From assembly GCA_000004985.1 (NCBI GenBank), contig GG738864.1: a stretch of DNA of 64,000 nt; one strand, written 5' to 3'. How positions within the stretch are numbered: position 1 is the first letter of the stretch; the number at the start of each line of letters is the position of its first letter. This DNA is from Naegleria gruberi (Eukaryota). A model generated the notes under the pieces. It saw only the letters and a program-made list of their open reading frames with translations, had not been told where the DNA came from and did no database searches. This document shows positions 19,091-61,878 of this stretch, piece by piece. The position numbers and the translations under genes are program-made.

Positions 19091-19104
19091 TCCGAATATT
19101 TTGA

Positions 19105-35433: not shown

Positions 35434-36585
35434 ATGAAACCACAAAATACTGAGAATGATATTTTATTTGACAAGACATTAAAGTTTACTCCCGATATTG
35501 AAAATTATAAACCATACACCAAGAATCAGGCAAATTCAACATCACTCTCAGAGAAATCAACATTATCAAATATTTGTGTGATTAGTGTGATTTCGAAAGA
35601 GCATACAATTCCGAATAATAATTCACAAACAATTAAACAAGTCACAATTCCTCAAAAACCAATGAATATGAATAATGAAGTATTATTTGATTTGGATAAT
35701 TTATCTTTTATTCCAGACATGGAAAATTATTTACCATATTCAAAAGGGTTAATGTATAGAATGGGAAGTAAATTATTCGGAGGAATGACAGAATTTGCTA
35801 AAAATCATTACACTGCTAATATTGCAAAATACTGGGAAAAGTTTTTCAAAAAGAATAATGATAAATTCTTTAAAAACAGACAGTGGATGTTGAGAGAATA
35901 TCTCCAATTGAAGGATGCTATTGAAAAGAATGAAACATTTACTTTTTGTGAAATTGGATGTGGATGTGGTAACACAATTAATGGAATTTTATCCAATGTA
36001 AAGTCAATTAATGAAAATTTTGATGCAGCTAAACAGATGGAAATTTATGGATTTGACTGCTCATCTCATGCAGTGGAACTTTTGAAAGAAACTTATAAGG
36101 AGCATGAAAATATTCACCTCTTTGTTCATGACTTGTTGGAAAAGAAGAGTATCTTGGAAAGTGAGGCAACCAGTGCAAGACACACACCTCCTCCACCTCA
36201 TTTCATTCAATATTCGACAATGATATATGTATTGAGTGCATTCAGTTCACTAGAAGATATGAAATACATGCTCAATGTAAAGATTCACGAGTTACTCTCA
36301 AAGGGAGGTATTTTGTTTTTACGTGACTATGCTGTTGAGGATTTAGCTCACAAGAGATACCTAGAAGAGAAGGACATTTACACAAAACAATTGAGTGAAA
36401 CTTGTTTTGTAAGAGGAGATGGAACTTTGGTTTACTTTTTCTCAATTCCTGAACTGACCTCGCTCTTTGATACAGAAAAGTATGACGTACTGTCATGTGA
36501 ATATATCTATAAGGTGGTTGAAAATAGAGGAGAAAGCTTGACAATGAATAGAAAATTTATACAAATCGTTTGCAGGGCTAAATAA
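35434..36585 (+). CDS. SAM-dependent methyltransferase of the METTL2/METTL6/Trm140 family (tRNA m3C-type), 383 aa
   Basis: ANIAKYWEKFFKKNNDKFFKNRQWMLREY...FCEIGCGCGNTINGIL...LFLRDYAVEDLAHKRY matches the METTL2/Trm140 fold. Duplicated N-terminal motif LFD..L.F.PD.ENY.PY.K. Confidence 0.7.
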   Translation: MKPQNTENDILFDKTLKFTPDIENYKPYTKNQANSTSLSEKSTLSNICVISVISKEHTIPNNNSQTIKQVTIPQKPMNMNNEVLFDLDNLSFIPDMENYLPYSKGLMYRMGSKLFGGMTEFAKNHYTANIAKYWEKFFKKNNDKFFKNRQWMLREYLQLKDAIEKNETFTFCEIGCGCGNTINGILSNVKSINENFDAAKQMEIYGFDCSSHAVELLKETYKEHENIHLFVHDLLEKKSILESEATSARHTPPPPHFIQYSTMIYVLSAFSSLEDMKYMLNVKIHELLSKGGILFLRDYAVEDLAHKRYLEEKDIYTKQLSETCFVRGDGTLVYFFSIPELTSLFDTEKYDVLSCEYIYKVVENRGESLTMNRKFIQIVCRAK

Positions 36586-36586
36586 A

Positions 36587-37054
36587 TTATTGTTGTTGTT
36601 GAGCAGCAGGTCCGAAATAATTCATCAACAATCCCATAACTGAAAACATGATAGTTGTAACAGTTTGTTTGAAATCCATTTCAGAATATTTCAAATTACA
36701 CAATCCACTCACGCAGAACAAGGCTCCCAACCATGAAATATATTTCATCTTTAACATTAAACCCATCACACCACAAAATAATGATAACATTGAAGGAATA
36801 TCTGTTGGAGCCTCTTCTTCAGGTATATCATCAGGATACATAAATTCCTTTTCTTCATGTGCTGCCGATCTTCTTGTTCCGTTCGATGGAATAATTTTAT
36901 TTTGTGTTGTTGTAGATGGTGATATAGCAGCTGTGGTTGTGGTTGTTGTTGTGGATGGTGATGTAGTAGTGGTAGATACTTCTTCCGATGATGATGAAGC
37001 AACAGGTGTACTGTTCTCCTCCAAAGAAATTGTTTCCTCGTTTGATGATGACAT
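36587..37054 (-). CDS. Asterix / UPF0139 (WDR83OS, PAT-complex) homologue with a Thr-rich N-terminal extension, 155 aa
   Basis: C-terminal SMLSLFCGVMGLMLKMKYISWLGALFCVSGLCNLKYSEMDFKQTVTTIMFSVMGLLMNYF aligns with metazoan Asterix ([59 protein letters not shown]). Its stop is 1 nt from the converging methyltransferase stop. Confidence 0.7.
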   Translation of the reverse strand: MSSSNEETISLEENSTPVASSSSEEVSTTTTSPSTTTTTTTAAISPSTTTQNKIIPSNGTRRSAAHEEKEFMYPDDIPEEEAPTDIPSMLSLFCGVMGLMLKMKYISWLGALFCVSGLCNLKYSEMDFKQTVTTIMFSVMGLLMNYFGPAAQQQQ

Positions 37055-40708: not shown

Positions 40709-42348
40709 TTACGCCTCAATTGGAAAGGTATGAAAACGCTTTGGTATCATTGCATTGCCATAAGCAGTTTCATTTCTTAATATTTTCCAAGTGTTCAAGT
40801 TATCCGACATTAACTCATTCATAAAACCATTTTGAATAATAGCAGTTCTGAAATAGCTCACAAGGTAATCCTCTTTGCTTCGTCTAATTGCTAATCCTCT
40901 TAAACATAGCCCATTCACTTTCAAAAGACTAACACAAAAATCAACATCCTGTTTCAGCTCTTCATCAATAAATAGAGTACAGAGAGGATTTTCCATGCTT
41001 GCTTGAAAAACAAAATCTCTGTCTTTCTTAAGTGATTCATCAACGTAATTCATTATTTCATGATCTTGTTTTAAAAGTGGAAGAATAAAGGATTTGTCTG
41101 TTTTGAATTCTTGGGGCATGAAATAGAGAAGAGATGGAAATGAATTCATTAAGAGTTGAGAGTTGAAATCTCTGTCACTTTTAAGTCTACCAGATGCGTG
41201 CCTAAAAGCAAAAGTGTTTTGAAGCATTGCTATTTCAAGAGTTTCTAAATCATCCCTCAAATGTTCAGAAGCATATTCCAGTTGATGTCCATTTTTAAGT
41301 ACGCAAGCTTGTACAATTTCCTATCTGGTAGACTTATCAGGAGAAGCTCGTTGGATTCAGCTAATTTCAGAATGTCCTCTCTATCCATAAATACTGGAGT
41401 CTCCAGAGAATTGGAATGGGTTATTAGTTGGTACTTTGCAAAATATAGATCCGATTTCAATTGATCTGATGCAAATCTGAATGCTCCATTACAGTTCTGT
41501 ACTGCCTTCTCCACAACTTCTCTTTTTCAATATGAATTTTAATTGAAAAATCAAGCTTACCTATCATTTCTCAAACGGTAAGATGCATGTTCTAATTCCA
41601 TACCATATTTGCTAACAACATTCAATACTAACTCTTTGTCATCTTTCCACTCTTCTGGTGCATAAGCTAACGGGAAAAAATTATTGAGCTCTTTTCTCAC
41701 TCTTTTTAAAAATTCCACATTTTCAGTTAATGATTTAGAGGCATATGTTATCACAAAAGGTGATTGCTTAATAGCATCCATAACAAAATCAGGATCCTCT
41801 CTTAATTGCATAGAAGCCTTTTCCAAATAATTGGCATCTATTTGTATCAATCGTTTCATAAATTTTTGTTTCCTTTTCAAATTACAGAATCTAATAGCTG
41901 TATGTTTCTCTTCCAATGCCCATTCAAAAAACCGATCCGTTTCTAACACTTTCGTTGAAGTATATAAAAGAATTTTAACATTAACTCTAGCCAACCTTAT
42001 CACAAATTCCACATTATTCTGCAAATGTTTCTTCAGGTGAGGAATTGAATAAACTATTGATCTGAAATTTGGTGGAAAATTCTCTATCAATCTCATCATG
42101 AATTTTTCAATCACTTCCAAATCATTCATAAATTCAATCGGAATAAAAGAATGTTGTCCATATTGATTAAAAGCAATGGATGGAATTTTGTATAGCAGAA
42201 AATTCATTCTCTCCGATAACCACTTGGCCAATCCTCTACATTCTCTTCTGTATTTTCCCTTGAATATTTGGTAGAGGAAATTGTTATTTTCTTGAGAAAA
42301 GTCTTTGAGGATGAATGTAATGGGAAGGCTCGGATCAAGTTGTTTCAT
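40709..42348 (-). CDS. DUF4116-repeat protein, disrupted as sequenced. Exon 42348-41561, 39-nt intron 41522-41560 (GTAAGC..AAAAAG), exon 41521-~41295, then a +1 frameshift at a T5/A5 run near 41292-41296 before the rest of the ORF to 40709
   Basis: Repeated ~40-aa motif (LEYASEHLRDDLETLEIAMLQN; AFRFASDQLKSDLYF; AFRHASGRLKSDRDFNSQLL; ITYASKSLTENVEF; ELEHASYRLRNDREVVEKAVQNCNG) characteristic of DUF4116. Three consecutive six-frame ORFs; the splice is phase-consistent. The frameshift may be a homopolymer sequencing error or a pseudogene lesion. Confidence 0.5.
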
Positions 42349-42387
42349 TTTTTTTTATTGTAAACTTTCGAGTTAAAGATTGGCAAG

Positions 42388-43827
42388 TTATTCTTCTATT
42401 CCAACCAAGTAGTACCTTAAAGAACCACTGTCTGTTGCAGTGCAGTGAAATGCATCAATAATTGGAAGTTTTTCAAGAAGTGAATCAATTACAAATTCTA
42501 TAAAAGAGATGACTGAATCGAATTGGCTGTCAATTTTCAATTCGTTTAAACTCTTATCTCCCTTTCCCCAAACCACTGTATCGTATGTTCCATAGGCTAT
42601 TCCACTTAACCCATAATATTTCTTTGTTTTAGGATCAATGATGGAAAATGAATGTTCACCTTCGTATCCATCACATCCATAGTAGAACACTTCCTTAACT
42701 TCTAATTCACATTTGTAAATATCATTATTTAAACGCATGTCGAATGTTGTCTGGATAAAGTGCATGTCTTTCCTGAATGCGTTTGAATAGGCAGCTCCTT
42801 TGACATTTGTAATATCAAATAGTGAACCCTCATCTTGGTTAAAATTATTCAAACAATTGGAATACATATTGGAAACTACTCTTTCCATTATTGATACAGG
42901 TTCGTTCAATTTTTTAACATTTTCAAGAGGTTTTTGAATTAGTCTTTCCCTCAAATCATCCGAATATTTGAATTTAAGCGCATGATTGCAGACCTGATCT
43001 CTTAAAGTCAATTTTGGTTCAGAGGTAAGTTCATGCTTTGGAAAATCAAGGAAAATGCGTAATAACTTAAAGCAGAACGAATCCCCTCTGAATCGTTCCT
43101 CTAAAAGTAAAGAACCAACATAATTAAAGAACGTTGGATTTTGCCAATACTCTACCTCTTGATAAAGTCCAGATTCCTCTCCATCAAGTTGATGAACAAG
43201 AATGTTGTTTACACTTGGGTCAATATTCAGCAAATTCCAATCAAATGTTGGATCTTCATTTTGTTCAACAGTTATATAGACAAGCTCATCCTCTGTATTC
43301 GATAAATGTATGTGTATTCTAATTTTGATACCTTCCTTAATATGAATCATTAATTCAATATGGGAGCCATCATCGACCCAACCAACAGATGAAGAGATCA
43401 CAGTCATTGTTGGATACTTGTCAACCACTAAAGGATTTGGTGTATCACTAAAAAAGCCAGGCTCTTTAGAAGCCAGAGTCAATGAATACAGCTTTCCATC
43501 AATCCACTTCTTTAAACTCACGTACAACTCATCATTTCTCTCAGTGCTTAAACATTCCACACAATAATCCATCAAATTTTTGACAGCATAAAAAGAGGGA
43601 ACCCTCCGTGATCCTACAATTTCATTCCAAGTTGTATTAACAAGTCTACAATTCAACAATTCTTCAATGGTCATATAATTCATGATATAACCGAGACTAT
43701 CATAATCTAAATTTGCTAAATGATTTATTTTCAAGCCAAATGATGAGCCTCCTCCTTCAATCTTGCTTCTCTTCTCATCACTTGCATCAGATGGCGAAAG
43801 AGATTCCGAATCAAAGTGTCGTTTCAT
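42388..43827 (-). CDS. F-box domain protein, 479 aa
   Basis: N-terminal F-box-like LDYDSLGYIMNYMTIEELLNCRLVNTTWNEIV. The rest is unassigned. Confidence 0.5.
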   Translation of the reverse strand: MKRHFDSESLSPSDASDEKRSKIEGGGSSFGLKINHLANLDYDSLGYIMNYMTIEELLNCRLVNTTWNEIVGSRRVPSFYAVKNLMDYCVECLSTERNDELYVSLKKWIDGKLYSLTLASKEPGFFSDTPNPLVVDKYPTMTVISSSVGWVDDGSHIELMIHIKEGIKIRIHIHLSNTEDELVYITVEQNEDPTFDWNLLNIDPSVNNILVHQLDGEESGLYQEVEYWQNPTFFNYVGSLLLEERFRGDSFCFKLLRIFLDFPKHELTSEPKLTLRDQVCNHALKFKYSDDLRERLIQKPLENVKKLNEPVSIMERVVSNMYSNCLNNFNQDEGSLFDITNVKGAAYSNAFRKDMHFIQTTFDMRLNNDIYKCELEVKEVFYYGCDGYEGEHSFSIIDPKTKKYYGLSGIAYGTYDTVVWGKGDKSLNELKIDSQFDSVISFIEFVIDSLLEKLPIIDAFHCTATDSGSLRYYLVGIEE

Positions 43828-46725: not shown

Positions 46726-48057
46726 TTAAATTAAGTAAACTTGTTCTTCCATAAAACCAAGAGTTGTGTTTTGGTGTGTGAAACATGATTGTTGGACGCC
46801 AAGTTTTAACTTGTTCCACTTGAATTCAGTAAGAGCTTGCTCAGAATTAGTTGATGGATTAATTTTCATGTTTAAGAATAAAAACCAAGCCATAGCATCA
46901 TCAGCATGTTGGAAAATCAAATCAATAGTTCTATTCTTTCCTGATTTTGTTTTAACTGAAATGGATAAACAGTTTCCACAATCATAACCATTCATTGTCT
47001 TTTCCAAATATCTTTGGAATGTGTTTGTTGAAACGCCATGATAAACAGCAGATACTTGTGAAATATTCAAATGTCTATCCAATAATTGATTGACATTGTC
47101 ATCCTCTTCTTGTGACATTTTTGCAGTTGATGAATGAATTGTTTGAGTTCCCCATCTAATAACATTACCATTCTTTGATAATTGTAAAAATCTCTTCTTT
47201 TCAACACCTGAACAAGCACCTAAATATGGTAATTTCATAACCTTACAACCAAGTTGACATTGATTTAAACTCCAACTATTCCATCGTTTTGAATTTTCAT
47301 CAATCTTTGAAGGAACAATTGGTAAATTCTTTGGAGGTAAAGAAGGAGGAGTACTAACAGTAGCAGTACTAGTAGCTGTCAAATGTTTGTGAACAACATT
47401 CAATTTTGATGGAATTGTCAAATTTGGAGAAGAAACAGGAACTGGTTGACTTTCCTTAGTATCATTTAAAATAGCAGTTGATCCTTGTTTTGCCAAATTC
47501 AAATAATTTAACCATTTCTTTTGTTCATTTTCATCATCACAACAAAGGAAATATTCTCTTCCACTTTTAGTAACAATTTTAATACCAAATCTTTTAACCT
47601 TATTAAATTGAATTGCTTCAACCAATTCAACTCCAAATCTAATACTTATCGAACTGATTGATTCTTGATCAGTTGGATTTTTAAAATAATACAACAAAAT
47701 ATCTGTTGTATTCGAATCGAATGATGTTAATCCGAAACTTGCATTCGATCGACTACTACTTGCTCCACTCACACTTGCTCTTACATTACTACTACTAATT
47801 CCTAATTGTTGTTGTTGTTGATTTAATATTAAATTTAGTGATGAATTTGCTGTTGTGGTCGTTGTTGTTCCTGTCTTGTAGATTAGAATAAAAAAACGTT
47901 TTCTCCACATGACTCCCATCTTACGATCCTGTTTGTTTAACATGCCAGAAATGATGGCATTAGGTGCTTGGGCTACTTCATAGGCTGGCTTGGAGAAATT
48001 GAAGGGTGGATCCTTTTCACCAACAATGAACGAGGACGATGAAGCTGATGATGACAT
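46726..48057 (-). CDS. Protein with two pleckstrin-homology-like domains, 443 aa
   Basis: The N-terminal segment ISGMLNKQDRKMGVMWRKRFFIL fits the start of a PH domain. A second PH-like region lies around GVEKKRFLQLSKNGNVIRWG. Poly-Q/T linker. Confidence 0.55.
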   Translation of the reverse strand: MSSSASSSSFIVGEKDPPFNFSKPAYEVAQAPNAIISGMLNKQDRKMGVMWRKRFFILIYKTGTTTTTTANSSLNLILNQQQQQLGISSSNVRASVSGASSSRSNASFGLTSFDSNTTDILLYYFKNPTDQESISSISIRFGVELVEAIQFNKVKRFGIKIVTKSGREYFLCCDDENEQKKWLNYLNLAKQGSTAILNDTKESQPVPVSSPNLTIPSKLNVVHKHLTATSTATVSTPPSLPPKNLPIVPSKIDENSKRWNSWSLNQCQLGCKVMKLPYLGACSGVEKKRFLQLSKNGNVIRWGTQTIHSSTAKMSQEEDDNVNQLLDRHLNISQVSAVYHGVSTNTFQRYLEKTMNGYDCGNCLSISVKTKSGKNRTIDLIFQHADDAMAWFLFLNMKINPSTNSEQALTEFKWNKLKLGVQQSCFTHQNTTLGFMEEQVYLI

Positions 48058-48779
48058 TTTTTATTGATTGTTTTTTTAGCCTTGGAGACAGGAAATGGTT
48101 TCTACCATGGGTTAATGATGGATGAAAGATCAATTATTGTGGTGGGAGGTTCATTTGGTGGTTAGTTATGTGTGATCAAGTAACGGTCGATTCAGATCTC
48201 TTAATATTTAAAAAGTTTTTTGAAAAATTGAAATTGTTTCAATAATTATGAAAATTATTGGTGTTTAAATTATGACGCAAGCAAATTGTCATCTTTAGAA
48301 TTTGATGAGCTGTAATATTTTATTTCACACACTTCCATGAATCCTTTTAGAACTGGTAATTTTGATTTCAATTCTTCATTTGCTGAAAAATAGAAGTTAT
48401 GGAGACAATGGTGCCACGGTTCGCTTGTTGTGGATTTAGGTATTTTTGAAAAATTTCCTTAAATAATACTCCAGTTGAAAAAAATGATATCAAAACTTGG
48501 TTGATTATCTCAATAAATATAGGAAGGCACACCTTCCTGTTTTTAACGCATGTAGATCAGACTATTATACATCACATTGGTAAGCTATAAGATCTGAGCA
48601 TGTGTGGATCCCAAACCAGAGAGATAATGACAGGTACCAAACCCAACACATGACCAAGAGGTGATACATCTACCAATCCAATCCAATTACATTATTAAAG
48701 CTATCCTAATTTCCAAAATTTCAGTATCATTCTATATTTTCTAAACTGCAAAAGATTTGAAATAAACTAAAATTTTATC

Positions 48780-48850
48780 TCGAACGCCGGGAATTGAACC
48801 CGGGTCGCCAGAGTGACAGTCTGGAATGCTACCACTATACCACGCCCGAT
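48780..48850 (-). tRNA. tRNA-Asp (anticodon GTC), 71 nt
   Basis: Minus-strand sequence TCGGGCG-TG-GTATAGTGGTAGCAT-T-CCAGA-CTGTCAC-TCTGG-CGAC-CCGGG-TTCAATT-CCCGG-CGTTCGA-G folds as a cloverleaf: 7-bp acceptor (two G·U pairs), anticodon loop CTGTCAC, T-arm with GGTTCAATTCC. The D-stem has one A·C mismatch. No encoded CCA. Confidence 0.8.
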
Positions 48851-50931: not shown

Positions 50932-51102
50932 CATTTCAATAATTAATAAATTATTCATTTGAATTGTTTCCAAGAAACAAGTGCTTTATTGTCTGGTCAA
51001 CTAACTAGCTCAATTTAATCATGCACATAATTCAACTCTTGACCAAAAGTGATTTCTAATCATCATAATGCTCATAATTCCAATAAAATTACTCTTTAAT
51101 TA

Positions 51103-51580
51103 TTATTCATTCTTCATAATCATTACTAATCCAGTCATAATAATAGCATATCCAATATACCACTGATAAGTAATAATTTCACCAAACACGAAAACTCCAA
51201 ACAAGGAAGTAAAAACAAAATTACTAGCCAAATTAGTAGTTGTTGCTGTGAGTGTTGATAATCCTTTCAATGCTCTATTTGAATCAATGCAATCAATACA
51301 CGTTAGTTCAAATAATGAAAACTCACCTCCCCTGAAATACAATCATAAACACTGTCAGTAATATATTCAAACAAAAGAATAAAATCGTTGATTCATTACT
51401 GGATATCATCTTGCCGCAAACACTTGATAAACTTCCTAAAAATCCAGCAATTATTGCATTTCCAAAATGGAGTGAAATTTTATCATCTTTTTTCAAAGAA
51501 GTCTCTTGTTCTTCCTCCTGTTGTGATGATAATTTTGATTGTGATGTTTGTGTGGATGGTTTATCTTGTTGTGATGACAT
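51103..51580 (-). CDS. Small polytopic membrane protein (TMEM42/EamA-like, ~140 aa). Exons 51580-51327 and 51274-51103, intron 51275-51326 (GTGAGT..AACTAAC..AAATAG, 52 nt)
   Basis: Hydrophobic segments ISLHFGNAIIAGFLGSLSSVCG, ILFFCLNILLTVFMIVF, NLASNFVFTSLFGVFVFGEII, IGYAIIMTGLVMI. The splice is phase-consistent. Its ATG lies 3 nt after the stop of the upstream GTPase gene. Confidence 0.5.
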
Positions 51581-51583
51581 TTT

Positions 51584-53044
51584 TTATTTTTTGGTTGCTG
51601 ATTTTCTACGTTCCTCTCTGATCTTGTACTTTACAATGTCTTCATAGGATTTGTATTGTTTGTCACTTCTATTGACCTTATCATCGAGGTGTTTGGTTCT
51701 TTGAACGTACTTGTTTTGCTTTGTCAAGGTACCCATTTGAATTGTGGATATTTTAATGTGCTTCTTTGGAGCAGTTGACTTTGGTGTTGCTTGTTTGGAT
51801 TCAGTTTCAAACTCATCATCATCATTGGAGACTTCTTCCTTTGTTGGTTTGTCTTTTGATTTCTTTTCTGGAGTGGCAATTACTTGTGGAATTTCAATTT
51901 CCTCCTCTTCATATTCGTCTTCCTCTCCACCGAAAATGGCTCCTCGTTCAGTATCATCTCCTTCCTCAAACTCATTAACAGAAATTTCAGAAAACTTTGA
52001 ATTTTCTTCCAATAAATCCAATGATGAAGTCACTGTACTGGCAATAAAGTTTCTAATTTCTGGAATACCATGTCCTCTCTTTGCGCTAGAAAGAATAATG
52101 TTTGGAGAAATGTTGACAGTCTTGGTCATCTTTAACTCTTTCAATTCCCTCAAGAGTAAAATTCTCAAACTCTTGATAACTTCTCCCAATACATTGTAAT
52201 TTTGCTTATCTACTTTCGTCAGAACTATTGTGTATGGAATTTCATTCTTTACCAAATAATGGAAGAATTCCACGTCAGACTTTTTCAATCCAAGAGTTGG
52301 ATTTGTTGCATTTTCTGGATTTTTTGCAATAGCATCTGCAAAATCCTTGATTCTTCTCACATCCAACAACCATAAAGTAATTAAATACTTGTCATAATTC
52401 ATCCTATGTTTAAAATAATCTCTAATTAAAACATGCCATCCTCTTAAAAGTGATTTTGGAACTTTAGCGAATCCATAACCTGGCATATCAACCAAATATA
52501 AATTCAATCTTTTGAGAAGGAAATAATTTAGTGTTTGAGTTCTTCCAGGTGTCTTACTTATTTTCACATCGGTTGCCTTTCCTTTAAATATTGATGAAAC
52601 TAGTGATGATTTTCCGACATTTGACCTTCCAATAATTGCAATTTCAAACTTTTTGTGTGATGTTGTTGGCACTTTATCATAGGATGCCACAAATGAATGA
52701 TCTAGAAAGTAATTATTTCCTATCGAATTTGTCCTATCAATTCCATTCAAAAATTCATTAAATTGAAAACATTTTGAAATAAAATCGGAATCTGGAGTCT
52801 TGTAATTATTTGCTTTAAAAACATTCCACTCATAATCCTCATTCCTCGTTAAACTATTTGACACACAAGTTTTAAAATTAGCAACCATTTCCTTCATCAT
52901 TAAATTGCTCATTGATATCTGAGGATGATGAGTATTGAAACAACCCAACAGATGCTTATTATTCATAAATATTAACTTGGAAACTCTTCTTGGAACGGAA
53001 GAGCACACAGACGAACTCAATCTCTTCATTTTCACTTTTATCAA
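51584..53044 (-). CDS. EngB/YihA (YsxC)-family GTPase, probably mitochondrial ribosome biogenesis (GTPBP8-like), with a Lys/Glu-rich C-terminal extension, 486 aa
   Basis: G1 IAIIGRSNVGKSSLVSSIF, G2/G3 KTPGRTQTLNYF...LVDMPGYGFA, G4 TKVDK. Confidence 0.75.
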   Translation of the reverse strand: MIKVKMKRLSSSVCSSVPRRVSKLIFMNNKHLLGCFNTHHPQISMSNLMMKEMVANFKTCVSNSLTRNEDYEWNVFKANNYKTPDSDFISKCFQFNEFLNGIDRTNSIGNNYFLDHSFVASYDKVPTTSHKKFEIAIIGRSNVGKSSLVSSIFKGKATDVKISKTPGRTQTLNYFLLKRLNLYLVDMPGYGFAKVPKSLLRGWHVLIRDYFKHRMNYDKYLITLWLLDVRRIKDFADAIAKNPENATNPTLGLKKSDVEFFHYLVKNEIPYTIVLTKVDKQNYNVLGEVIKSLRILLLRELKELKMTKTVNISPNIILSSAKRGHGIPEIRNFIASTVTSSLDLLEENSKFSEISVNEFEEGDDTERGAIFGGEEDEYEEEEIEIPQVIATPEKKSKDKPTKEEVSNDDDEFETESKQATPKSTAPKKHIKISTIQMGTLTKQNKYVQRTKHLDDKVNRSDKQYKSYEDIVKYKIREERRKSATKK

Positions 53045-53384
53045 TATTGTCGTGTTTTATATTTCTCTTGTTCTACCCTGCGTCACTCACAGAAGAAAGA
53101 TTCTTCTATCTAATAGGAATATTTGTCGTTGTTGCCTTCTGTTCTCTTCAACCACAAATGACCCAATGTACAATTTTGGTTGAGGTACTTGGGTGGTGTT
53201 TTTTATTAGACTTGTATTTTATTATATAAAATTAATTAAAAATACAAAAAGTTCTAACAAGAGTGGCTCGAGTTGGATACAACAAAGAATCAACTGCCGA
53301 AGAATATTATTGCGAGAATTTTATAGTCAAATAGTTTTACTGTTGCTATCCTAGGATTATCATCACAATCACCATCATTATAAA

Positions 53385-53818: not shown

Positions 53819-55835
53819 TTATATGTGGTAGTAGTGACTATTACTGATTCTTTCGTGAGAAAAAATTTGTTTTTCTGCAAGAGCTAATCTTCTCATTTCA
53901 CGAATTGGATCAGGCGGAGCAAAATGAATCTTTGGATTTGTAATTTCCTCAATACTTGTTTCTGTATGAGTTTTGGTTGGTTTAGCTCCTGCAAGAGCAG
54001 ATGCAACATGTCTCTTACGTAAAATGTCCAACTTGGCTTTTGCAGCTCTATCCTCTTCCACTGCTTTCTGATACATTTCGTCTAATTGATTTTTCTCTTC
54101 CTGTTTCTTTAACTTTTGAATTAATTTATCTCTCTTGAGAAGAACTTTCTTTGTACTTGTAAGATCAATGTTGTGAACCTTCATTTGCTCGTCCAAACTT
54201 TGTATAACCTCTATGGTATTTGATTCATTCTCTGACATTAGTGATTTCAAAAGGGATTTATCCTTATTTGTCCTATTTGTTAATGAGTCTGGGTTGACCA
54301 AATTATTTTGCAAACCAGCAGAAAATTCAATCAAATCTCTTTCCATCAAATCTTTGTAGTGGAGTGGGTTTTGCTTTTCTAGTTGTTCTAAAAGGTCCTC
54401 GTGTCTAATGGAAATAAGCGGTTCGGTGTACTTCTTATGTCTCTTTGTTCTATCAGAATAGGCTTGGTTTACCAATAAAGTTGGAAGTTGCATTTGAACT
54501 TGAATTTGTTCCAATATATCCTTTGGAACTGAAATATCACTTCTCTTGTCTGCAGACATTACACGGTTGTAGGCTTGGTTTTCATCTTCTTCCTCTGGAT
54601 CAATTACTGAATCAGCATCATTAAATGTATTTTCCTCACTAAAATGTTGAACCCTTCCAAAGGATCCAGACTGTGGAGCTTTTCTAGCTATTTCTTGGTG
54701 CATATTTCTCAGCATATTGACTGTATTGTTGGAAGCAATACTTCTCATTGATTTGGTATGGTTTTGGTTCAATTCAGAGAGCCTCGAAGGTCTTCCATCT
54801 TCGTCATCATCACTGTAATCATCTGTCTTTTTAAGGGCAGTCAAGAAGAAAGACGATTCATCTCCAGTCTTCGATAGCATTGATTGGTTTTCATCTTCAA
54901 ATTCATATTCTTCAACTTTTCTCGTTCCATAATACTTAAAATACATTCTTGGATTTTTAGGAAGGGCTAAAGGCGATTGAGAATTGAGTTCTTTTTCTTC
55001 CAAATAGGTGTACAGTTGGGGATATCTTTCAATAAGATTCTTTAAATCTGTTGCCATTTTCAAAACATAATCTGATTCATCGAAAAGATAGGTATCCCTA
55101 TCTGTGTCTGTTTGCTTAGCTTTCCATGTTTCTATTTTGAATTAATTGTCAATAACTTTCAAAATACAACTTACCTATATATTCAATAATGTACAGACTG
55201 ACAGTTCTAAATAGGACAATTTCATCACCTAAAAGTTTACCTAATGTTTTAACATCCACAAAACTAGGATCTTTAGGACTGAGAGAACTTTTTTGACAGA
55301 TGTTTTTCAAACTCCTCAAACTGTTCTCTCTTTGTTCAATTAATCCCTTAATTCTGAGATCCAACCACCTAATCTCAAATACTCGCATAGTTTCTTTTGA
55401 AATATTCTCGAAATTTTTATGGGCATCATCATTGAAATTTGAATGAGTAAATGTTTCTCTGTGTGCCCAGTTTGTTTCAGAATCTTCCCACAATGTTGAG
55501 AGAATTCTCTTCTTTGCCTCTAATAATTCCAAAACAGCTGGTGATATCTTTTTTCTTGCTCTATTATGTGAGGAAGTAATTTGTTCCTCTCTTAAGTGGG
55601 AGTTCATAAGATGGTCATCTTCCAAAAACTTTTTCAATCGTTGTTCCATAGCTTGTGATTCCTTATCTATTCCTGCTTTAAAATCATTTTCAGCCTCCTC
55701 TGCTTTCCGATCATTAAGAGAAAACTTTAATAACGAATTGGCTTCATCTACTGTTGTTGAGAATTTTGGTGTATCCTCTTTATGATCATCATCTTTCTTG
55801 AATGATGGTTTACTTTTTAAAATTCCCTTCTTCAT
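53819..55835 (-). CDS. Coiled-coil protein (~645 aa). Exons 55835-55175 and 55131-53819, intron 55132-55174 (GTAAGT..AAAATAG, 43 nt)
   Basis: The 55149..55835 and 53819..55063 ORFs are joined in phase 1; exon 2 extends upstream of the listed M. Predicted helical/charged heptad-like regions. No specific family. Confidence 0.5.
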
Positions 55836-55949: not shown

Positions 55950-56567
55950 ATGGATGAAAATACTTTTGTTAGAGAATGTGTAGAGTTGATGTCGAGAGAC
56001 GAAATGAAGAAACAAGGCTGGAATTGGATGGGAGAGTACGCAGAATTAATGACACATATTCATTCTCCACAAATCAATTTTGAAAATATTTCATCGGCAC
56101 AATCCGATCATTCTTTTGACAATGAGGAAGATATTGTGGAGGATATTGAAGATGTAACTACCAGCGATACTTCTTGGATAATTAATTCTTCAAATCAAAA
56201 TTCTCAAATTTTCTCAATTAGATATCACATTGTTTATAATCAGATATTTAAATGTCCAACACTTTATTTCAATATTTATAATAATAATAATGAATTATTA
56301 TTACCTACTCAACTCATGGAAATATTTCAAAAGATTGGAGAATCTAAAGGACTAATTCCAACTGAAAATTTCAATCCCTATACGTTCATCACACAAGGAG
56401 AGCATCCAATTCTTGGTACAATTTTCTATTATATCCACCCATGTGAAACTAGAACAGTTATGGAAACTGTTTGCACAAACACTCCAGTCAATTATGTTTA
56501 CACATGGCTTACATTTTTTGGAAAAGTGGTATTGGTAAATACTCCAATAATTACTGAATTTTGTTAA
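55950..56567 (+). CDS. ATG10: Autophagy E2-like enzyme Atg10-like, 205 aa
   Basis: Motifs IRYHIVYNQIFKCPTLYFNIY and catalytic-Cys context FYYIHPCETR resemble Atg10 (Y.I.YS.SY.VPVLYF...HPC). Size fits Atg10 rather than Atg3. Confidence 0.55.
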   Translation: MDENTFVRECVELMSRDEMKKQGWNWMGEYAELMTHIHSPQINFENISSAQSDHSFDNEEDIVEDIEDVTTSDTSWIINSSNQNSQIFSIRYHIVYNQIFKCPTLYFNIYNNNNELLLPTQLMEIFQKIGESKGLIPTENFNPYTFITQGEHPILGTIFYYIHPCETRTVMETVCTNTPVNYVYTWLTFFGKVVLVNTPIITEFC

Positions 56568-57933: not shown

Positions 57934-60522
57934 ATGAAACGTAGTGGTAACAACAATCTGAGTAGTTTAAGTTCAGTTAGTGGTAGCAATAACATTGGAA
58001 ATAGAAAGCCTTTTAATAAAGTGAATGTACCAAAGCCTGTAAATCTTCCAATTGCTGGCAATACCTCTGGTACAATCACTTCAAACAGCACCACAACAAC
58101 AAACACAACTCTAAACAATAGTAATATTGCAACAAGTACAAATCCAGGACCAACTTTGACTGGAAATAACTCGACTACATCAACTCTAAATAATGCTAAT
58201 TCTACTCCAAATAATGCAGGTAATGCTTGGAATACAAGACAATTACAATCATCTTGGTTTCAACATAACCCATCTTCTTCGAACGTTGAATCATCAAGTA
58301 CAGATCCGATTAACGTGAGTCAATCTGATAATAGCAAGCCTACCACCATTAATACAACTCCATCTTTGCCTGTAAGATCAACCCGTACACCAATTACACC
58401 AACAAAGGATACAAATAATAATAATTCGGCTTCATTGACACCACAAACAACAGCAAATAGTAATAACGAGGAAACTAGCCATCATGAAAAAAAGCAAACA
58501 AATCCAGCAGCTACAACTCATGCTGGACACGACAGTAACTGGGGTGAAATTTATGATGATGATGATGATTTTTATGATTCGGATCTAGAAGAACTCATAG
58601 AAAAGGAAAATAAGACAAATGCTCCAACACAAGCCAAGACTAAGAAACAGAAATATTTGGAAAAGAAGAAGCTTCTCAGAGAACAACAAATGATTGCTGA
58701 AAAGTCAAACAAATCCGAACATAGTGAACCTAAAACTGTTTCCACTCCTTCCAATACCTCTAATTCTACTCCTTCCAATACATCCCCTCAAAATTCATTA
58801 CCATCTTCTCCTCCTTGTTTGAATTTTGCTGATACAATAGAAGAAGAACAACAAATAGAAGAAATAGAAGAAATAGAGCAAACAGAACAAACAGAACAAA
58901 CAGAACAAACAGAGCATACAGAGCAAATAGAAGAACAACACATAGAAAATCCAGTTCATAATTCTCCTCCTTCTCCTCAAGAAGAGGTTCCTAAACAACA
59001 TACCGAACCTCAACATCAAACATCAATTCTTCCAAAGAATACCCCTGTTACTTCTCATCGACCACCATCTTTTTTCTCTATTGGACGTATTCCAAAGGAA
59101 AATACCAGACCTTCTCATCCACTTTCCACTCATCCAATTCATACCACCGATAACCATGTACCAAAAATACTTCCTGCCGAACCTCAACAAGATACCACCA
59201 AGCCAAAAGAAGAACTTATTAAAACAATTAAAGAGCAAGAGGTTTTGTTAAATGAAACTGCTGAAAGAAGAAGAAGAGAAAAAGAGGAGGAAGAAGATAG
59301 AATCGAAAGAGAAAGAAAGGAAAGGGCTCTTTCAAAATTAAAGGAATTAGAAAAAAAGCTTGCCGAGAAAAAACCATCAGTTCCAGAACCAGTTGCCCAA
59401 CCAATAGAAAATACTCAACCTGTTGTTGCTGAAACATCGAACACTGAACCAACCAGCTTCAGTAGTCAACAAAACTCAAATGGAGTTAAAATTCTCAAAT
59501 CTCATAACAATGGGGGTCATTCTACTAGAGGAAATCATCATGGAAGAGGAGGTTCAACTCATAAAACTCAAAGACCAACAAGTGAACAACCTCCAAAGGT
59601 TCAACATGAAAAAGTTGAGGAAAAATCCATAACAGATACTGACAACAATTGGAGAAGTTCAAATGTCAAGTTGACAAAACCACCATTTGGACTTCCTCAA
59701 ACTATGACAAGAGAAGCAACTAATACTACAGCTACTACCCATTCACAGGAAGGTAATGCCCACAACAATTCTGGAGGTAGAGGAGGACACTCAACAAGAG
59801 GAAGGCCAAACACAAGAGGTGGTCATACTAATCGTAATCCTAGAAAACAAGTTGATAATGAAAATAGTGTTCCAAAATCATCATCTGAATCAAATTCAGC
59901 AATTGATCTCAGTAATATACTTAAAAATATTAATCCAAACGAGGCAAAGAATAAGATTTCATTTGGTATGTTTGATGACGAACCAAAAGTTTCACAATTG
60001 AACAATGCTCCTCAACCTGCAACAACTCATCCAGAGAATTCAGCAAATCCAAGACCTGAGAGACCTCACACTGGTAAACAATCTCATCACCGTGAACATC
60101 AACACAAGAGAAATAATCCAGTCCAAGCGAACAATACTGAGCCAGTCCCTAACACTACAACTAGGCAACCACATCAAAACAAGCCTCCAAGACAAAAACA
60201 TAATGATAACCGAAACAATGAAAATCAAGCTCATCCAAGACCAAGACGTAATCAAGAATTTGTCAAAACTGCCAATCATGAAGAGGTAAAATCAGTCCCT
60301 GCCGATAGTGCACCTGACCAAAAAGAAACTCAATCAACCACTGGTAGTGATATTCAAGCAGGTGAAAATCAAAGAATGAATGGATCACAACGTTCTAATA
60401 ATAATAGAAGAGGTAATCATCATAATGGTACTCCAAGAAATCATCATCATGAAAAGCACACTCCTAAAAGTAGAATTTGTTTTGTTAAGGTAGATAATAC
60501 AACCACCACCAGTCAAGAGTAA
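57934..60522 (+). CDS. Large low-complexity Ser/Thr/Asn/Pro-rich protein with basic/acidic coiled region, (EQT)n repeat and RG/HH-rich C-terminus, 862 aa
   Basis: Single long ORF. Microsatellite-encoded EQTEQTEQTEQTEHTEQ (~58880-58930). RRRREKEEEEDRIERERKER charged helix. No domain recognised. Confidence 0.45.
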   Translation: MKRSGNNNLSSLSSVSGSNNIGNRKPFNKVNVPKPVNLPIAGNTSGTITSNSTTTTNTTLNNSNIATSTNPGPTLTGNNSTTSTLNNANSTPNNAGNAWNTRQLQSSWFQHNPSSSNVESSSTDPINVSQSDNSKPTTINTTPSLPVRSTRTPITPTKDTNNNNSASLTPQTTANSNNEETSHHEKKQTNPAATTHAGHDSNWGEIYDDDDDFYDSDLEELIEKENKTNAPTQAKTKKQKYLEKKKLLREQQMIAEKSNKSEHSEPKTVSTPSNTSNSTPSNTSPQNSLPSSPPCLNFADTIEEEQQIEEIEEIEQTEQTEQTEQTEHTEQIEEQHIENPVHNSPPSPQEEVPKQHTEPQHQTSILPKNTPVTSHRPPSFFSIGRIPKENTRPSHPLSTHPIHTTDNHVPKILPAEPQQDTTKPKEELIKTIKEQEVLLNETAERRRREKEEEEDRIERERKERALSKLKELEKKLAEKKPSVPEPVAQPIENTQPVVAETSNTEPTSFSSQQNSNGVKILKSHNNGGHSTRGNHHGRGGSTHKTQRPTSEQPPKVQHEKVEEKSITDTDNNWRSSNVKLTKPPFGLPQTMTREATNTTATTHSQEGNAHNNSGGRGGHSTRGRPNTRGGHTNRNPRKQVDNENSVPKSSSESNSAIDLSNILKNINPNEAKNKISFGMFDDEPKVSQLNNAPQPATTHPENSANPRPERPHTGKQSHHREHQHKRNNPVQANNTEPVPNTTTRQPHQNKPPRQKHNDNRNNENQAHPRPRRNQEFVKTANHEEVKSVPADSAPDQKETQSTTGSDIQAGENQRMNGSQRSNNNRRGNHHNGTPRNHHHEKHTPKSRICFVKVDNTTTTSQE

Positions 60523-60583
60523 TTTCAAATTGGCGCCTAAAGTTTCCCTCCAATAAATTAAACGTAAAAATTTAAAAAAAAGA

Positions 60584-61878
60584 ATGAATGCTTCGGCGAG
60601 TGTAATCGTTCATCAAATTAAACAATTACTCACTCAACATTTGAAGGAATTAAGAGTGTTCGGATCATCATGTAAAGCATACAGGAGATTTCTAACTAGA
60701 TTTAAGGGATGTCCTTTTCAATTATTTTCTCTGCATATTTCTCTGAGATGGAATGAAACTATCAAAGCCTGGCACAATCAATTAAAAGAACATGAATCAT
60801 ATTGTTTTGTATTGAATGAAGCAATAGCTTTCATGAGATCTCTTCCTAAACATTCCCTCTTTTCCGAATTTCATGAATTGAAGAGATTTAATACAGAAAT
60901 CGGAGCCAATCTACGACTTGCTCTTGATTATGCATTTGAGAAATATAGAAAATTACATGCCTTCATTGCTAGTTTCATGTCCAAAATTAAGAATCTTGCT
61001 GAATGTAAGTCAACTTGAACTAGTTATTGATTTTCAAAATAGTACCAAGAGAAAAGTGGCCAGGTGGTTGGTTTTGTTCAGAACATGATGATAAGCACCA
61101 CAAGAAAATAGATATTGAAATGAGACACCAATTCATATATGTTGTCCCTTATGAAATTGGGCAAAAAGCGAGAATACCAAAGAATAAGTTCGATCAAGAT
61201 AAGGCTGCAGCTTATTTGATAGAATTGAAAAGGCAATTGGATAATACGATAAGAAAGTTTGTTGGGAAACAAGGTATTCATCCACCTGAAACTACTTTAC
61301 CAGTTCGAGTGAGTTTTACAGAAAAGAAAGGATTGTTTTTGGATCACACTCACATCAATAGATTGGAAGACAGAGAAAAGAAGAAAGAAAGCAGAAGAAA
61401 CTGTACAAGAGTAGAATTAACAAAAACAACTTCAAATGAGAAACCAACAAGAACTATTGAAACTCGAGAGCCTACCCATTACGAATCCTTTTATTCAGAG
61501 CCTAAATCATTTGAGCCTCCTTCTAGGTTTGTAAGAAAATCAGAATTCCATGAAATGACAGACAAGAAACTTGAAAGGGAAAATGCAGACATTAATCCAT
61601 ATGTTTTGTGGAGTTTCCCAACATCTACATTCTTTACAGACGAAAGATTTCAAAGTCATAACGAAAATATGACGAAGCGAAAGAAGATGGAAAAATTAGG
61701 TAAATTCGATTACAACGATGTTATCTCAATGCGGCACTACAAGAGTATGGTACAAGATGTGGAAGATGGTGATGATATTATTCATGCTTTGCAAGATCAA
61801 CAACAAAGGTATATGTGTAATTTAGGAGTTCAAGATTGTATTCATGTTGGTAAACATTTGGATTGGTCAAATAAATAA
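60584..61878 (+). CDS. Hypothetical basic protein (~419 aa). Exons 60584-61004 and 61043-61878, intron 61005-61042 (GTAAGT..AAATAG, 38 nt)
   Basis: Two ORFs joined in phase 1 by a 38-nt canonical intron. The N-terminus has basic, amphipathic character (possibly organellar). No family recognised. Confidence 0.5.

What the first reader, a model, noticed from the sequence alone, without database searches (positions are those of the whole stretch)
51575..51590. Same-strand gene pair separated by 3 nt: GTPase stop TAA, then AAA, then ATG of a membrane-protein gene
On the minus strand the EngB-like GTPase ORF ends TAA at 51586-51584 and the TMEM42-like gene begins ATG at 51580-51578. The downstream gene's first Met precedes its first TM helix, so an internal start would truncate the protein. 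This implies a promoter embedded in the upstream coding region, or a dicistronic transcript with reinitiation or internal initiation. Most other intergenic spacers in the window are 200-700 bp.
Basis: seen in the sequence. Interest (0 to 1): 0.7.

Follow-up and report, generated by a model that had tools for sequence, protein, structure and literature searches.

The report
Two Naegleria genes three bases apart
In the amoeba Naegleria gruberi, a ribosome-assembly GTPase gene ends three bases before a small membrane-protein gene starts; this is the tightest case of a packing habit common in this compact genome, so the two messages probably overlap, although a shared two-gene message is not excluded.

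Summary
On the minus strand the GTPase stop TAA (51586-51584) is followed by AAA and then the ATG (51580-51578) of a TMEM42/EamA-like gene. The window is Naegleria gruberi nuclear DNA.

Both genes are real and separate. The GTPase C-terminus is conserved to its last residues in five heteroloboseans. The membrane-protein gene has orthologues with the same intron position.

The tight junction is conserved:
- 3 nt in two N. gruberi sequences
- 2 nt in an environmental relative
- 21 nt in N. lovaniensis
- 31 nt in N. fowleri

It is not unique. The same window holds other same-strand pairs 14-91 nt apart and convergent pairs 1 nt apart or overlapping.

The string AATAAAAAATG does three jobs. It holds the stop codon, an AAUAAA poly(A) signal overlapping that stop (published for 11-13% of N. 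gruberi genes), and the A-rich start context typical of this genome.

Most likely (about 0.6) there are two overlapping single-gene messages, with the downstream promoter inside the GTPase coding end. A two-gene message with termination-reinitiation (about 0.2) is not excluded, because no transcript data could be reached. I rate it a new member of a known kind, of modest interest.

The parts
51584..53029 (-). EngB/YihA/YsxC-type GTPase gene (NAEGRDRAFT_66930). It is 481 aa from the ATG at 53029, and the stop TAA is at 51586-51584. The public model starts at Met40 (52912).
   Evidence: One search gives the ORF. One search shows 100% identity to the N. gruberi protein. One search shows TIGR03598 at 134.4 bits, above the 124.45 cut-off. 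Searches show the C-terminus conserved to the end in five taxa.
51583..51588 (-). AATAAA hexamer that contains the GTPase stop codon, i.e. a 'dual-use' stop and poly(A) signal.
   Evidence: Read. In one search the same arrangement is found at 11 of 32 ORF ends in the window. PMC11529991 reports AAUAAA as the N. gruberi signal, overlapping 11-13% of stops, with a median 3' UTR of 22 nt for such genes.
51581..51583 (-). 3-nt spacer AAA between the stop and the start. It keeps the two ORFs in the same frame.
   Evidence: The junction is identical in the second N. gruberi-like sequence L004.
51578..51588 (-). AATAAAAAATG: the A-rich start context plus the ATG of the downstream gene.
   Evidence: In one search, 19 of 28 gene starts have at least 6 A in positions -8..-1, against 2.9% of all ATGs. 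Here 7 of 8 are A. The same AATAAAAAATG string occurs at the starts of ORFs 36587-37054, 19105-19980 and 46726-48057.
51327..51580 (-). TMEM42/EamA-like gene, exon 1 (Met1 to Gly84 plus 2 nt). It includes a 31-aa hydrophilic insertion after Met-Ser-Ser, then TM1 and TM2.
51275..51326 (-). 52-nt intron, GTGAGT...AATAG, with the branch-site-like ACTAAC at 51307-51302. The position and phase match N. fowleri and N. lovaniensis.
51103..51274 (-). TMEM42/EamA-like gene, exon 2 (TM3 and TM4), with the stop TAA at 51105-51103.
51632..51635 (-). TGTA, a possible upstream auxiliary element of the poly(A) site. It lies inside the GTPase coding sequence, about 47 nt upstream of AATAAA.
   Evidence: Read. 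UGUA enrichment upstream of N. gruberi poly(A) signals is reported in PMC11529991. Its role here is inferred only.
51530..51580 (-). Region where the GTPase mRNA is predicted to be cleaved (roughly 51570-51555 if the 3' UTR is about 15-30 nt). This falls inside the first codons of the downstream ORF. The stretch is unusually T-poor.
   Evidence: Inference from the published 22-nt median 3' UTR. In one search the T fraction over positions +1..+50 is 0.14, the lowest of 32 ORF ends (median 0.38).

Best explanation
These are two independent genes that abut because the N. gruberi genome is tightly packed. Their transcription units overlap.

Shown:
- The GTPase ORF ends at a TAA embedded in AATAAA.
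- The same A-rich string is the normal N. gruberi start context for the next gene.
- Both genes are conserved as separate genes.
- The junction is 2-31 nt long in four Naegleria-clade taxa.

Inferred:
- The GTPase mRNA is cleaved and polyadenylated about 15-30 nt past its stop, inside the first codons of the TMEM42-like ORF. Most GTPase mRNAs would therefore not carry the second ORF.
- The TMEM42-like mRNA starts at its own transcription start site within the last tens of nucleotides of the GTPase coding sequence, inside the 65-nt ATG-free stretch before 51580. Its low-information, A/T-rich core promoter is therefore embedded in the GTPase 3' coding region.
- Translation then starts normally at the first AUG (51580).
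For: 1. Separate genes.
- The GTPase C-terminus (..NKY[VI]QRTKHLDD..KYK..KKK*) ends within 4 residues of the same point in N. gruberi, N. fowleri, N. lovaniensis, environmental contig L008 and Willaertia magna. In Willaertia the next gene is unrelated and about 295 nt away.
- The membrane protein is 65% identical to its N. fowleri orthologue and has the same intron position.

2. The start codon is genuine. It has the A-run signature, and the helix after it is conserved.

3. The dual-use stop and poly(A) signal is published for N. gruberi. AAUAAA is the signal, the median 3' UTR is 39 nt, and it is 22 nt when the hexamer overlaps the stop (PMC11529991). In this window 11 of 32 ORF ends have that arrangement.

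4. The pattern is general, not a special device of this pair.
- Mut7-C RNase to SacI-domain gene: 14 nt, or 58 nt to the second ATG.
- F-box to DUF4116: 39 nt, with AATAAA 8 nt before the downstream ATG.
- 57934-60522 to 60584: 61 nt.
- 55149-55835 to 55057: 91 nt.
- Convergent ORFs are 1 nt apart (36585/36587) or overlap by 4 nt (56564-56567).

5. Heterolobosean genomes show about 2 genes per same-strand run and no polycistron signature (bioRxiv 10.64898/2026.07.29.740908).

6. Routes for translating a second cistron look poor.
- There are 38 ATG triplets between the two starts.
- There is no UGGGA motif in the last 150 nt in any of four taxa.
- There is no significant RNA structure at the junction (z = -1.16).
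- Reinitiation after long ORFs is described as presumably very rare (PMC5972666).
Against: - No transcript ends were seen. Every step about where the RNAs start and stop is inference.
- There is no excess synonymous-site conservation in the last 49 GTPase codons compared with the G domain. Ng-Nf is 57% against 54%, and Ng-L008 is 49% against 57%. No conserved embedded promoter element is therefore visible.
- The AATATT motif found about 30 nt upstream of many N. gruberi ATGs is absent upstream of 51580.
- The 50 nt after the GTPase stop are the most T-poor of 32 ORF ends (0.14 against a median of 0.38). They lack the U-rich downstream element reported for N. gruberi poly(A) sites, so read-through into the second ORF could be frequent.
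- The spacer is the shortest same-strand spacer in every locus examined: 31 nt against 182 and 187 in N. fowleri, and 21 nt against 241 and 376 in N. lovaniensis. That would also fit a selected stop-start coupling.
Confidence: 0.6

Rival explanations
1. A true bicistronic mRNA. The poly(A) signal at the GTPase stop is weak or bypassed, and transcription continues to the end of the TMEM42-like gene. Ribosomes finishing the GTPase ORF at UAA then restart at the AUG 3 nt downstream (termination-reinitiation).
For: - The stop-start distance is tiny and conserved: 3, 3, 2, 21 and 31 nt.
- It is the shortest same-strand spacer in each locus.
- The sequence after the stop lacks the U-rich downstream element.
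- No promoter-like motif or extra synonymous conservation is seen in the GTPase 3' end.
- The junction is unstructured and A-rich.
- Nuclear bicistronic mRNAs are now known in green algae and Cryptosporidium (PMC7896298, PMC11291117, PMC11761812).
Against: - The upstream ORF is 481 codons long, and reinitiation after long ORFs is expected to be very rare without a tethering element (PMC5972666).
- No UGGGA motif is present in any of four taxa.
- The frame relation is not conserved: in frame in N. gruberi, +2 in L008, +1 in N. fowleri.
- Unrelated gene pairs in the same window show the same crowding.
- AAUAAA over the stop normally gives 22-nt 3' UTRs in this species.
- Heterolobosea show no polycistron architecture.
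Confidence: 0.2
2. Polycistronic precursor processing of the euglenozoan type. A long precursor is cut between the ORFs, and the downstream mRNA receives a new 5' end, for example by spliced-leader trans-splicing.
For: Naegleria belongs to Discoba, the supergroup that contains trans-splicing Euglenozoa. The lack of any intergenic space would be harmless under such a system.
Against: - Gene orientation in the window switches about every second gene.
- Published comparisons find no polycistron signature in Heterolobosea.
- No pyrimidine tract with an AG acceptor precedes the ATG. The sequence is ...GAAAATCAGCAACCAAAAAATAAAAAATG.
- To my knowledge no spliced leader has been reported for Naegleria. 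This rests on my own knowledge and was not tested here.
Confidence: 0.03
3. Stop-codon read-through gives a GTPase-TMEM42 fusion protein, because TAA AAA ATG keeps the two ORFs in one frame.
For: The ORFs share a frame in both N. gruberi sequences.
Against: - The frame is not shared in L008 (2-nt spacer), N. lovaniensis (in-frame spacer, but a TAA stop in the read-through frame) or N. fowleri (31 nt, with a tandem TAG TAA).
- In Willaertia and Acrasis the two genes are not adjacent.
- UAA followed by A is generally a strong terminator. This is established knowledge and was not tested here.
Confidence: 0.02
4. The downstream start is not the one used. The gene might start at Met58, or be barely expressed, so the tight junction would have no consequence for expression.
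For: The gene is absent from the public N. gruberi protein set. No expression data were reachable.
Against: - Met58 lies after the first conserved helix and has a poor context, GCGGCAAG.
- Orthologues in N. fowleri, N. lovaniensis, L008 and Acrasis all include that helix.
- The ORF and the intron position are conserved at 51-65% identity, which argues for a functional gene.
Confidence: 0.05

Closest known systems
'Dual-use' stop codon and poly(A) signals in compact protist genomes (Giardia, Spironucleus, N. gruberi; PMC11529991)
   Same: AAUAAA overlaps the stop codon of the upstream gene. That study reports the arrangement for 11-13% of N. gruberi genes, with a median 3' UTR of 22 nt. In this window it occurs at 11 of 32 ORF ends.
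   Different: Here the predicted 3' UTR is not intergenic. It lies in the coding sequence of the next gene on the same strand. The usual U-rich downstream element is missing. The actual cleavage site of this gene was not available to me.
Overlapping transcription in compacted eukaryotic genomes (microsporidia, and nucleomorphs; Williams et al. 2005 as cited in PMC3629993)
   Same: Spacers are too short to hold UTRs and promoters. In Encephalitozoon transcripts often initiate in upstream genes, and in Antonospora they often terminate in downstream genes. The same is inferred here.
   Different: Naegleria is free-living, with a genome of about 41 Mb (genome size from my own knowledge). It is much less reduced than those genomes. 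Its divergent spacers of about 180-450 nt show that ordinary promoter space exists elsewhere. No transcript mapping has been done for this locus.
Viral termination-reinitiation (calicivirus VP1/VP2, influenza B M1/BM2, hypovirus UAAUG; PMC5972666, PMC2699510)
   Same: The stop of a long ORF and the AUG of the next ORF lie within a few nucleotides of each other.
   Different: No TURBS-like UGGGA motif was found. This is a cellular gene pair. There is no evidence for a shared transcript.
Nuclear bicistronic genes of green algae (PMC7896298, PMC11291117)
   Same: Two conserved, unrelated proteins are encoded head to tail on one strand with a short inter-ORF distance.
   Different: The algal loci rely on leaky scanning, with a weak ORF 1 Kozak-like context and a depletion of AUGs before ORF 2. 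Here 38 ATG triplets precede ORF 2.

Membership tests
Dual-use stop codon / poly(A) signal (N. gruberi type) | An AAUAAA hexamer overlaps the stop codon | tested here: met
   AATAAA at 51588-51583 contains TAA at 51586-51584.
Dual-use stop codon / poly(A) signal (N. gruberi type) | Cleavage and polyadenylation about 20 nt after the stop (ultrashort 3' UTR) | not testable with these tools
   The supplementary 3' UTR tables of PMC11529991 are not held. No RNA-derived contigs were found.
Dual-use stop codon / poly(A) signal (N. gruberi type) | Auxiliary elements: UGUA upstream and a U-rich sequence downstream | tested here: inconclusive
   TGTA is present at 51635-51632, about 47 nt upstream of the hexamer. 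The downstream 50 nt have a T fraction of 0.14, the lowest of 32 ORF ends.
Overlapping transcription units of compact eukaryotic genomes | The spacer is shorter than the sum of the normal 3' UTR and the 5' UTR plus promoter, and this recurs in the genome | tested here: met
   The spacer is 3 nt, against a median 3' UTR of 39 nt. Other same-strand spacers are 14/58, 39, 61 and 91 nt. Convergent gaps are 1 nt and -4 nt.
Overlapping transcription units of compact eukaryotic genomes | Mapped transcripts that start inside the upstream gene or end inside the downstream gene | not testable with these tools
   No transcript data were reachable.
Termination-reinitiation bicistron (TURBS type) | The stop of ORF 1 and the AUG of ORF 2 lie within a few nucleotides | tested here: met
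   3 nt in N. gruberi and 2 nt in L008. The distance is 21 and 31 nt in N. lovaniensis and N. fowleri.
Termination-reinitiation bicistron (TURBS type) | A UGGGA motif (complementary to 18S rRNA helix 26) upstream of the restart site | tested here: not met
   No TGGGA occurs in the last 150 nt of the GTPase ORF in any of four taxa. The Naegleria 18S sequence itself was not checked.
Termination-reinitiation bicistron (TURBS type) | One mRNA carries both ORFs | not testable with these tools
   No transcript data.
Leaky-scanning bicistron (green-algal type) | Depletion of AUG triplets before ORF 2 | tested here: not met
   38 ATG triplets lie between the two start codons, 9, 26 and 3 by frame.
Euglenozoan-type polycistronic transcription units | Long same-strand gene arrays | tested here: not met
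   The strand changes about every second gene in the window. Heterolobosea have about 2 genes per directon.
EngB/YihA/YsxC ribosome-biogenesis GTPase | Score above the curated cut-off of the equivalog model | tested here: met
   TIGR03598 scores 134.4 bits against a cut-off of 124.45. Pfam MMR_HSR1 has E 3.1e-14.
TMEM42 / EamA-like small membrane protein | A match to the EamA domain and to named TMEM42 orthologues, with about four hydrophobic segments | tested here: inconclusive
   Pfam EamA scores 27.8 bits, just under the 28.2 cut-off. BLASTP against the Acrasis kona protein that UniRef names 'Transmembrane protein 42' gives E 7e-25. The hydropathy profile shows four peaks. No direct comparison with animal TMEM42 was made.

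The most novel reading that the evidence does not exclude
The GTPase and the TMEM42-like protein are made from one conserved bicistronic mRNA in Naegleria, with the second ORF translated by termination-reinitiation after a 481-codon ORF and without a TURBS-like element. This would be the first cellular stop-start bicistron described in Heterolobosea. The other tightly spaced pairs would then suggest that the mechanism is widespread in this genome.
Probability: 0.18. Interest if true: 0.6.

Novelty: new member of a known kind. Interest (0 to 1): 0.3.

Why it matters
- If the overlapping-message reading is right, this locus is a clean example of how a free-living protist packs genes. One 11-base string serves as stop codon, poly(A) signal and start context, and a promoter sits inside a coding sequence.
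- It is also a practical warning for annotation. The downstream gene appears to be missing from the public N. gruberi protein set.
- If instead the pair shares one message, it would extend cellular bicistronic expression to a new eukaryotic supergroup and offer a conserved model for reinitiation after a long ORF.
- Existing N. gruberi direct-RNA data could decide between the two readings.

Tried and rejected
**Transcript evidence**
- Exact-protein look-ups for the public GTPase model, the 481-aa ORF and the 85-aa exon-1 ORF found nothing.
- The poly(A) paper has no supplementary tables held.

**More orthologous loci**
- A conserved 29-nt pattern scan of the metagenome contigs found nothing.
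- A protein-pattern scan of the same collection also found nothing.

**Embedded promoter**
- Synonymous-site identity in the last 49 GTPase codons is no higher than in the G domain.
- The AATATT motif is absent upstream of 51580.

**Routes for translating a second cistron**
- TURBS-like tether: there is no UGGGA motif.
- Structured IRES-like element: the fold z-score is -1.16.
- Leaky scanning is rejected, with 38 intervening ATGs.

**Gene-structure alternatives**
- A read-through fusion is rejected because the shared frame is specific to N. gruberi.
- An intron that removes the stop and fuses the ORFs is rejected. The GTPase ends at the same place in Willaertia, where the neighbouring gene differs.
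- A non-coding RNA at the junction is rejected. Rfam and ARAGORN find only one tRNA-Asp elsewhere in the window.

- Literature searches found nothing on Naegleria 5' UTRs, transcription start sites or bicistronic transcripts.
Full report
**What the sequence is**

The window is AT-rich eukaryotic DNA, about 33% G+C. The upstream ORF is 100% identical to a predicted protein of Naegleria gruberi. That protein is NAEGRDRAFT_66930, also listed as EFC45281.1 and XP_002678025.1. The window is therefore N. gruberi nuclear DNA.

**Checking the observation**

The minus strand reads ...ACC AAA AAA TAA AAA ATG TCA TCA CAA.... TAA is at 51586-51584, AAA at 51583-51581 and ATG at 51580-51578, as reported.

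The upstream ORF runs 53029-51584 and encodes 481 aa from its first ATG. It matches Pfam MMR_HSR1. It also passes the curated cut-off of the NCBIfam YihA/YsxC equivalog, 134.4 against 124.45 bits, so 'EngB-like' is right.

The downstream gene has three parts:
- exon 1, 51580-51327
- a 52-nt GT..AG intron, 51326-51275, with an ACTAAC branch-like site
- exon 2, 51274-51103

The 141-aa product hits Pfam EamA just under the cut-off. It aligns with an Acrasis kona protein that UniRef calls Transmembrane protein 42, at E 7e-25. 'TMEM42-like' is therefore reasonable.

Met1 is the only in-frame ATG before the first hydrophobic helix. Met58 lies after that helix, which is conserved in the orthologues.

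**Both genes are real, and the stop is real**

I aligned the GTPase from N. gruberi, N. fowleri, N. lovaniensis, an environmental relative (L008) and Willaertia magna. All share a conserved C-terminal block and end within four residues of the same point. In Willaertia the next gene is unrelated and about 295 nt away. The GTPase stop is therefore not an artefact, and the two ORFs are not one gene joined by an unseen intron.

The membrane protein is 65% identical to its N. fowleri orthologue. The intron sits at the same codon and phase in N. gruberi, N. fowleri and N. lovaniensis.

**Orthologous junctions**

| Sequence | Spacer between stop and ATG |
|---|---|
| N. gruberi (window) | 3 nt |
| L004, metagenome contig 98.5% identical to the window | 3 nt, identical junction |
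| L008, environmental relative | 2 nt (AAG TAA AA ATG) |
| N. lovaniensis | 21 nt |
| N. fowleri | 31 nt, after a tandem TAG TAA |

In Willaertia and Acrasis the two genes are not neighbours.

The tight junction is therefore conserved within the Naegleria clade. In each annotated locus it is the shortest same-strand spacer. The others are 182 and 187 nt in N. fowleri and 241 and 376 nt in N. lovaniensis.

Flanking gene order is also conserved between these species, so conserved adjacency alone is not remarkable. The shared reading frame seen in N. gruberi is not conserved. This rules out a functional read-through fusion.

**How unusual the pair is within this genome**

The same 64 kb holds other same-strand pairs of unrelated genes with very short spacers:

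| Upstream gene | Downstream gene | Spacer |
|---|---|---|
| Mut7-C RNase, 19980-19105 (-) | SacI-domain gene | 14 nt to the first ATG, 58 nt to the second |
| F-box, 43827-42388 (-) | DUF4116, ATG at 42348 | 39 nt |
| 57934-60522 (+) | ORF starting at 60584 | 61 nt |
| 55835-55149 (-) | ORF starting at 55057 | 91 nt |

Convergent ORFs are 1 nt apart (36585/36587), or overlap by 4 nt (56564-56567). Divergent pairs, which need two promoters, are mostly 180-450 nt apart.

A normal same-strand spacer should therefore be about 150-200 nt, as in N. fowleri. Any spacer under about 60 nt means that transcript ends or promoters lie inside neighbouring coding sequence. The reported pair is the extreme of a recurrent pattern.

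**What the junction string does**

Two genome-wide habits meet in AATAAAAAATG.

First, it is the start context. Of 28 candidate gene starts in the window, 19 have at least six A in positions -8..-1, and 14 have at least seven. Among all 2673 ATGs the figures are 2.9% and 0.8%. The ATG at 51580 has AATAAAAA. Met58 has GCGGCAAG. Several ordinary genes start with the identical AATAAAAAATG.

Second, it is a poly(A) signal. A nanopore direct-RNA study shows the following for N. gruberi (PMC11529991):
- It uses AAUAAA as its signal.
- Its median 3' UTR is 39 nt.
- AAUAAA overlaps the stop codon in 11-13% of genes.
- Those genes have a median 3' UTR of 22 nt.

Here AATAAA (51588-51583) contains the GTPase stop. 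The same layout occurs at 11 of 32 ORF ends in the window. By inference, the GTPase mRNA ends about 15-30 nt into the downstream ORF. In the relatives, AGTAAA overlaps the stop.

**Tests bearing on mechanism**

- Leaky scanning on a two-gene message is excluded, because 38 ATG triplets lie between the two starts.
- Reinitiation after long ORFs is described as presumably very rare, and the known viral cases use an 18S-tethering element with a UGGGA core (PMC5972666). None of the four taxa has that motif in the last 150 nt.
- The junction RNA is unstructured, z = -1.16.
- No Rfam family or tRNA lies near the junction.
- Heterolobosean genomes show about two genes per same-strand run and no polycistron signature.

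All of these favour two overlapping single-gene messages.

Three results count against that reading:
- I found no positive trace of an embedded promoter. Synonymous-site identity in the last 49 GTPase codons is no higher than in the G domain.
- The AATATT motif that clusters 28-33 nt upstream of many N. gruberi ATGs is absent here.
- The 50 nt after the GTPase stop are the most T-poor of 32 ORF ends (0.14 against a median of 0.38). The site lacks the reported U-rich downstream element and may allow read-through.

These points keep the bicistronic reading alive.

**Conclusion**

The most likely reading, at about 0.6, is two abutting genes with overlapping transcription units. The GTPase has a dual-use stop and poly(A) signal. 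The downstream transcript starts within the 65-nt ATG-free stretch at the end of the GTPase ORF.

A conserved bicistronic message with termination-reinitiation gets about 0.2. Other readings are minor.

No transcript data were reachable. The mechanism is therefore inferred, not shown. The decisive test is simple: map the existing N. gruberi direct-RNA reads across 51100-53050.

**Comparison with known systems**

The case matches published dual-use stop and poly(A) signals, and the overlapping transcription described for microsporidia and, via Williams et al. 2005 as cited there, nucleomorphs. It differs in that the predicted 3' UTR lies in the coding sequence of a same-strand neighbour, in a free-living organism. 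It fails the defining features of TURBS-type and leaky-scanning bicistrons that I could test. I rate it a new member of a known kind, of modest interest.

Noticed in passing
window 51103-51580 (-): The TMEM42/EamA-like gene seems to be missing from the public N. gruberi protein set. Two database searches returned the N. lovaniensis and Acrasis orthologues and an 85-aa metagenome ORF, but no N. gruberi entry. The 3-nt junction may have caused gene finders to skip it.
   Followed up: partly
window 52912-53029 (-): The public GTPase model (442 aa) starts at Met40. An upstream in-frame ATG at 53029 adds 39 residues rich in Arg and Ser (MKRLSSSVCSSVPRRVSKL...), which looks like a mitochondrial presequence. 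It has CAATATT 20 nt upstream. The N. fowleri and N. lovaniensis proteins also have long N-termini.
   Followed up: partly
window, 28-33 nt upstream of the ATGs at 5178(-), 20217(+), 31268(+), 35434(+), 37054(-), 39548(+), 49797(-): AATATT, often as CAATATT, clusters 28-33 nt upstream of the start codon in 7 of 27 genes. ACAATAT and CAATATT are 6- to 8-fold enriched in upstream regions. This may be a core promoter or initiator element. It is not obvious in the few N. fowleri and N. lovaniensis genes examined.
   Followed up: partly
window, all gene starts: A run of A immediately before the ATG marks most gene starts. 19 of 28 have at least 6 A in positions -8..-1, against 2.9% of all ATGs. The run is also visible in N. 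fowleri, N. lovaniensis and Willaertia. It could be a translation context or a Giardia-like A/T-rich initiator.
   Followed up: partly
window 19090-19107, 42348-42390, 60520-60586, 55057-55151: Other same-strand pairs of unrelated genes have very short spacers: Mut7-C to SacI 14 nt, F-box to DUF4116 39 nt, and then 61 and 91 nt. In the F-box pair the AATAAA lies 8 nt before the downstream ATG.
   Followed up: partly
window 36585-36587 and 56564-56567: Convergent ORFs are 1 nt apart or overlap by 4 nt, so their 3' UTRs must run into each other's coding sequence.
   Followed up: no
L008 1-1303 (ENA ERZ27315067, k141_1726929): This environmental relative has a 2-nt junction and lacks the intron that three Naegleria species share at the same codon. 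That is either intron loss or gain, or the contig is cDNA-derived. In the latter case it would be a transcript spanning both ORFs. The nature of the sample is unknown.
   Followed up: no
L007 2671-3979 (N. lovaniensis): The GTPase orthologue is annotated as two genes (196 and 232 aa) because of a frameshift near ...WLLDVRRL. This is probably an assembly indel.
   Followed up: partly
window 51478-51571 (-): The N. gruberi membrane protein carries a 31-aa low-complexity insertion, rich in Gln, Ser, Glu and Lys, right after Met-Ser-Ser. The insertion is absent in N. fowleri and N. lovaniensis. It pushes the T-rich helix-coding sequence about 110 nt away from the GTPase poly(A) signal.
   Followed up: partly
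window 48779-48849 (-): A tRNA-Asp (GTC) gene lies in the 888-nt gap between two minus-strand ORFs.
   Followed up: no
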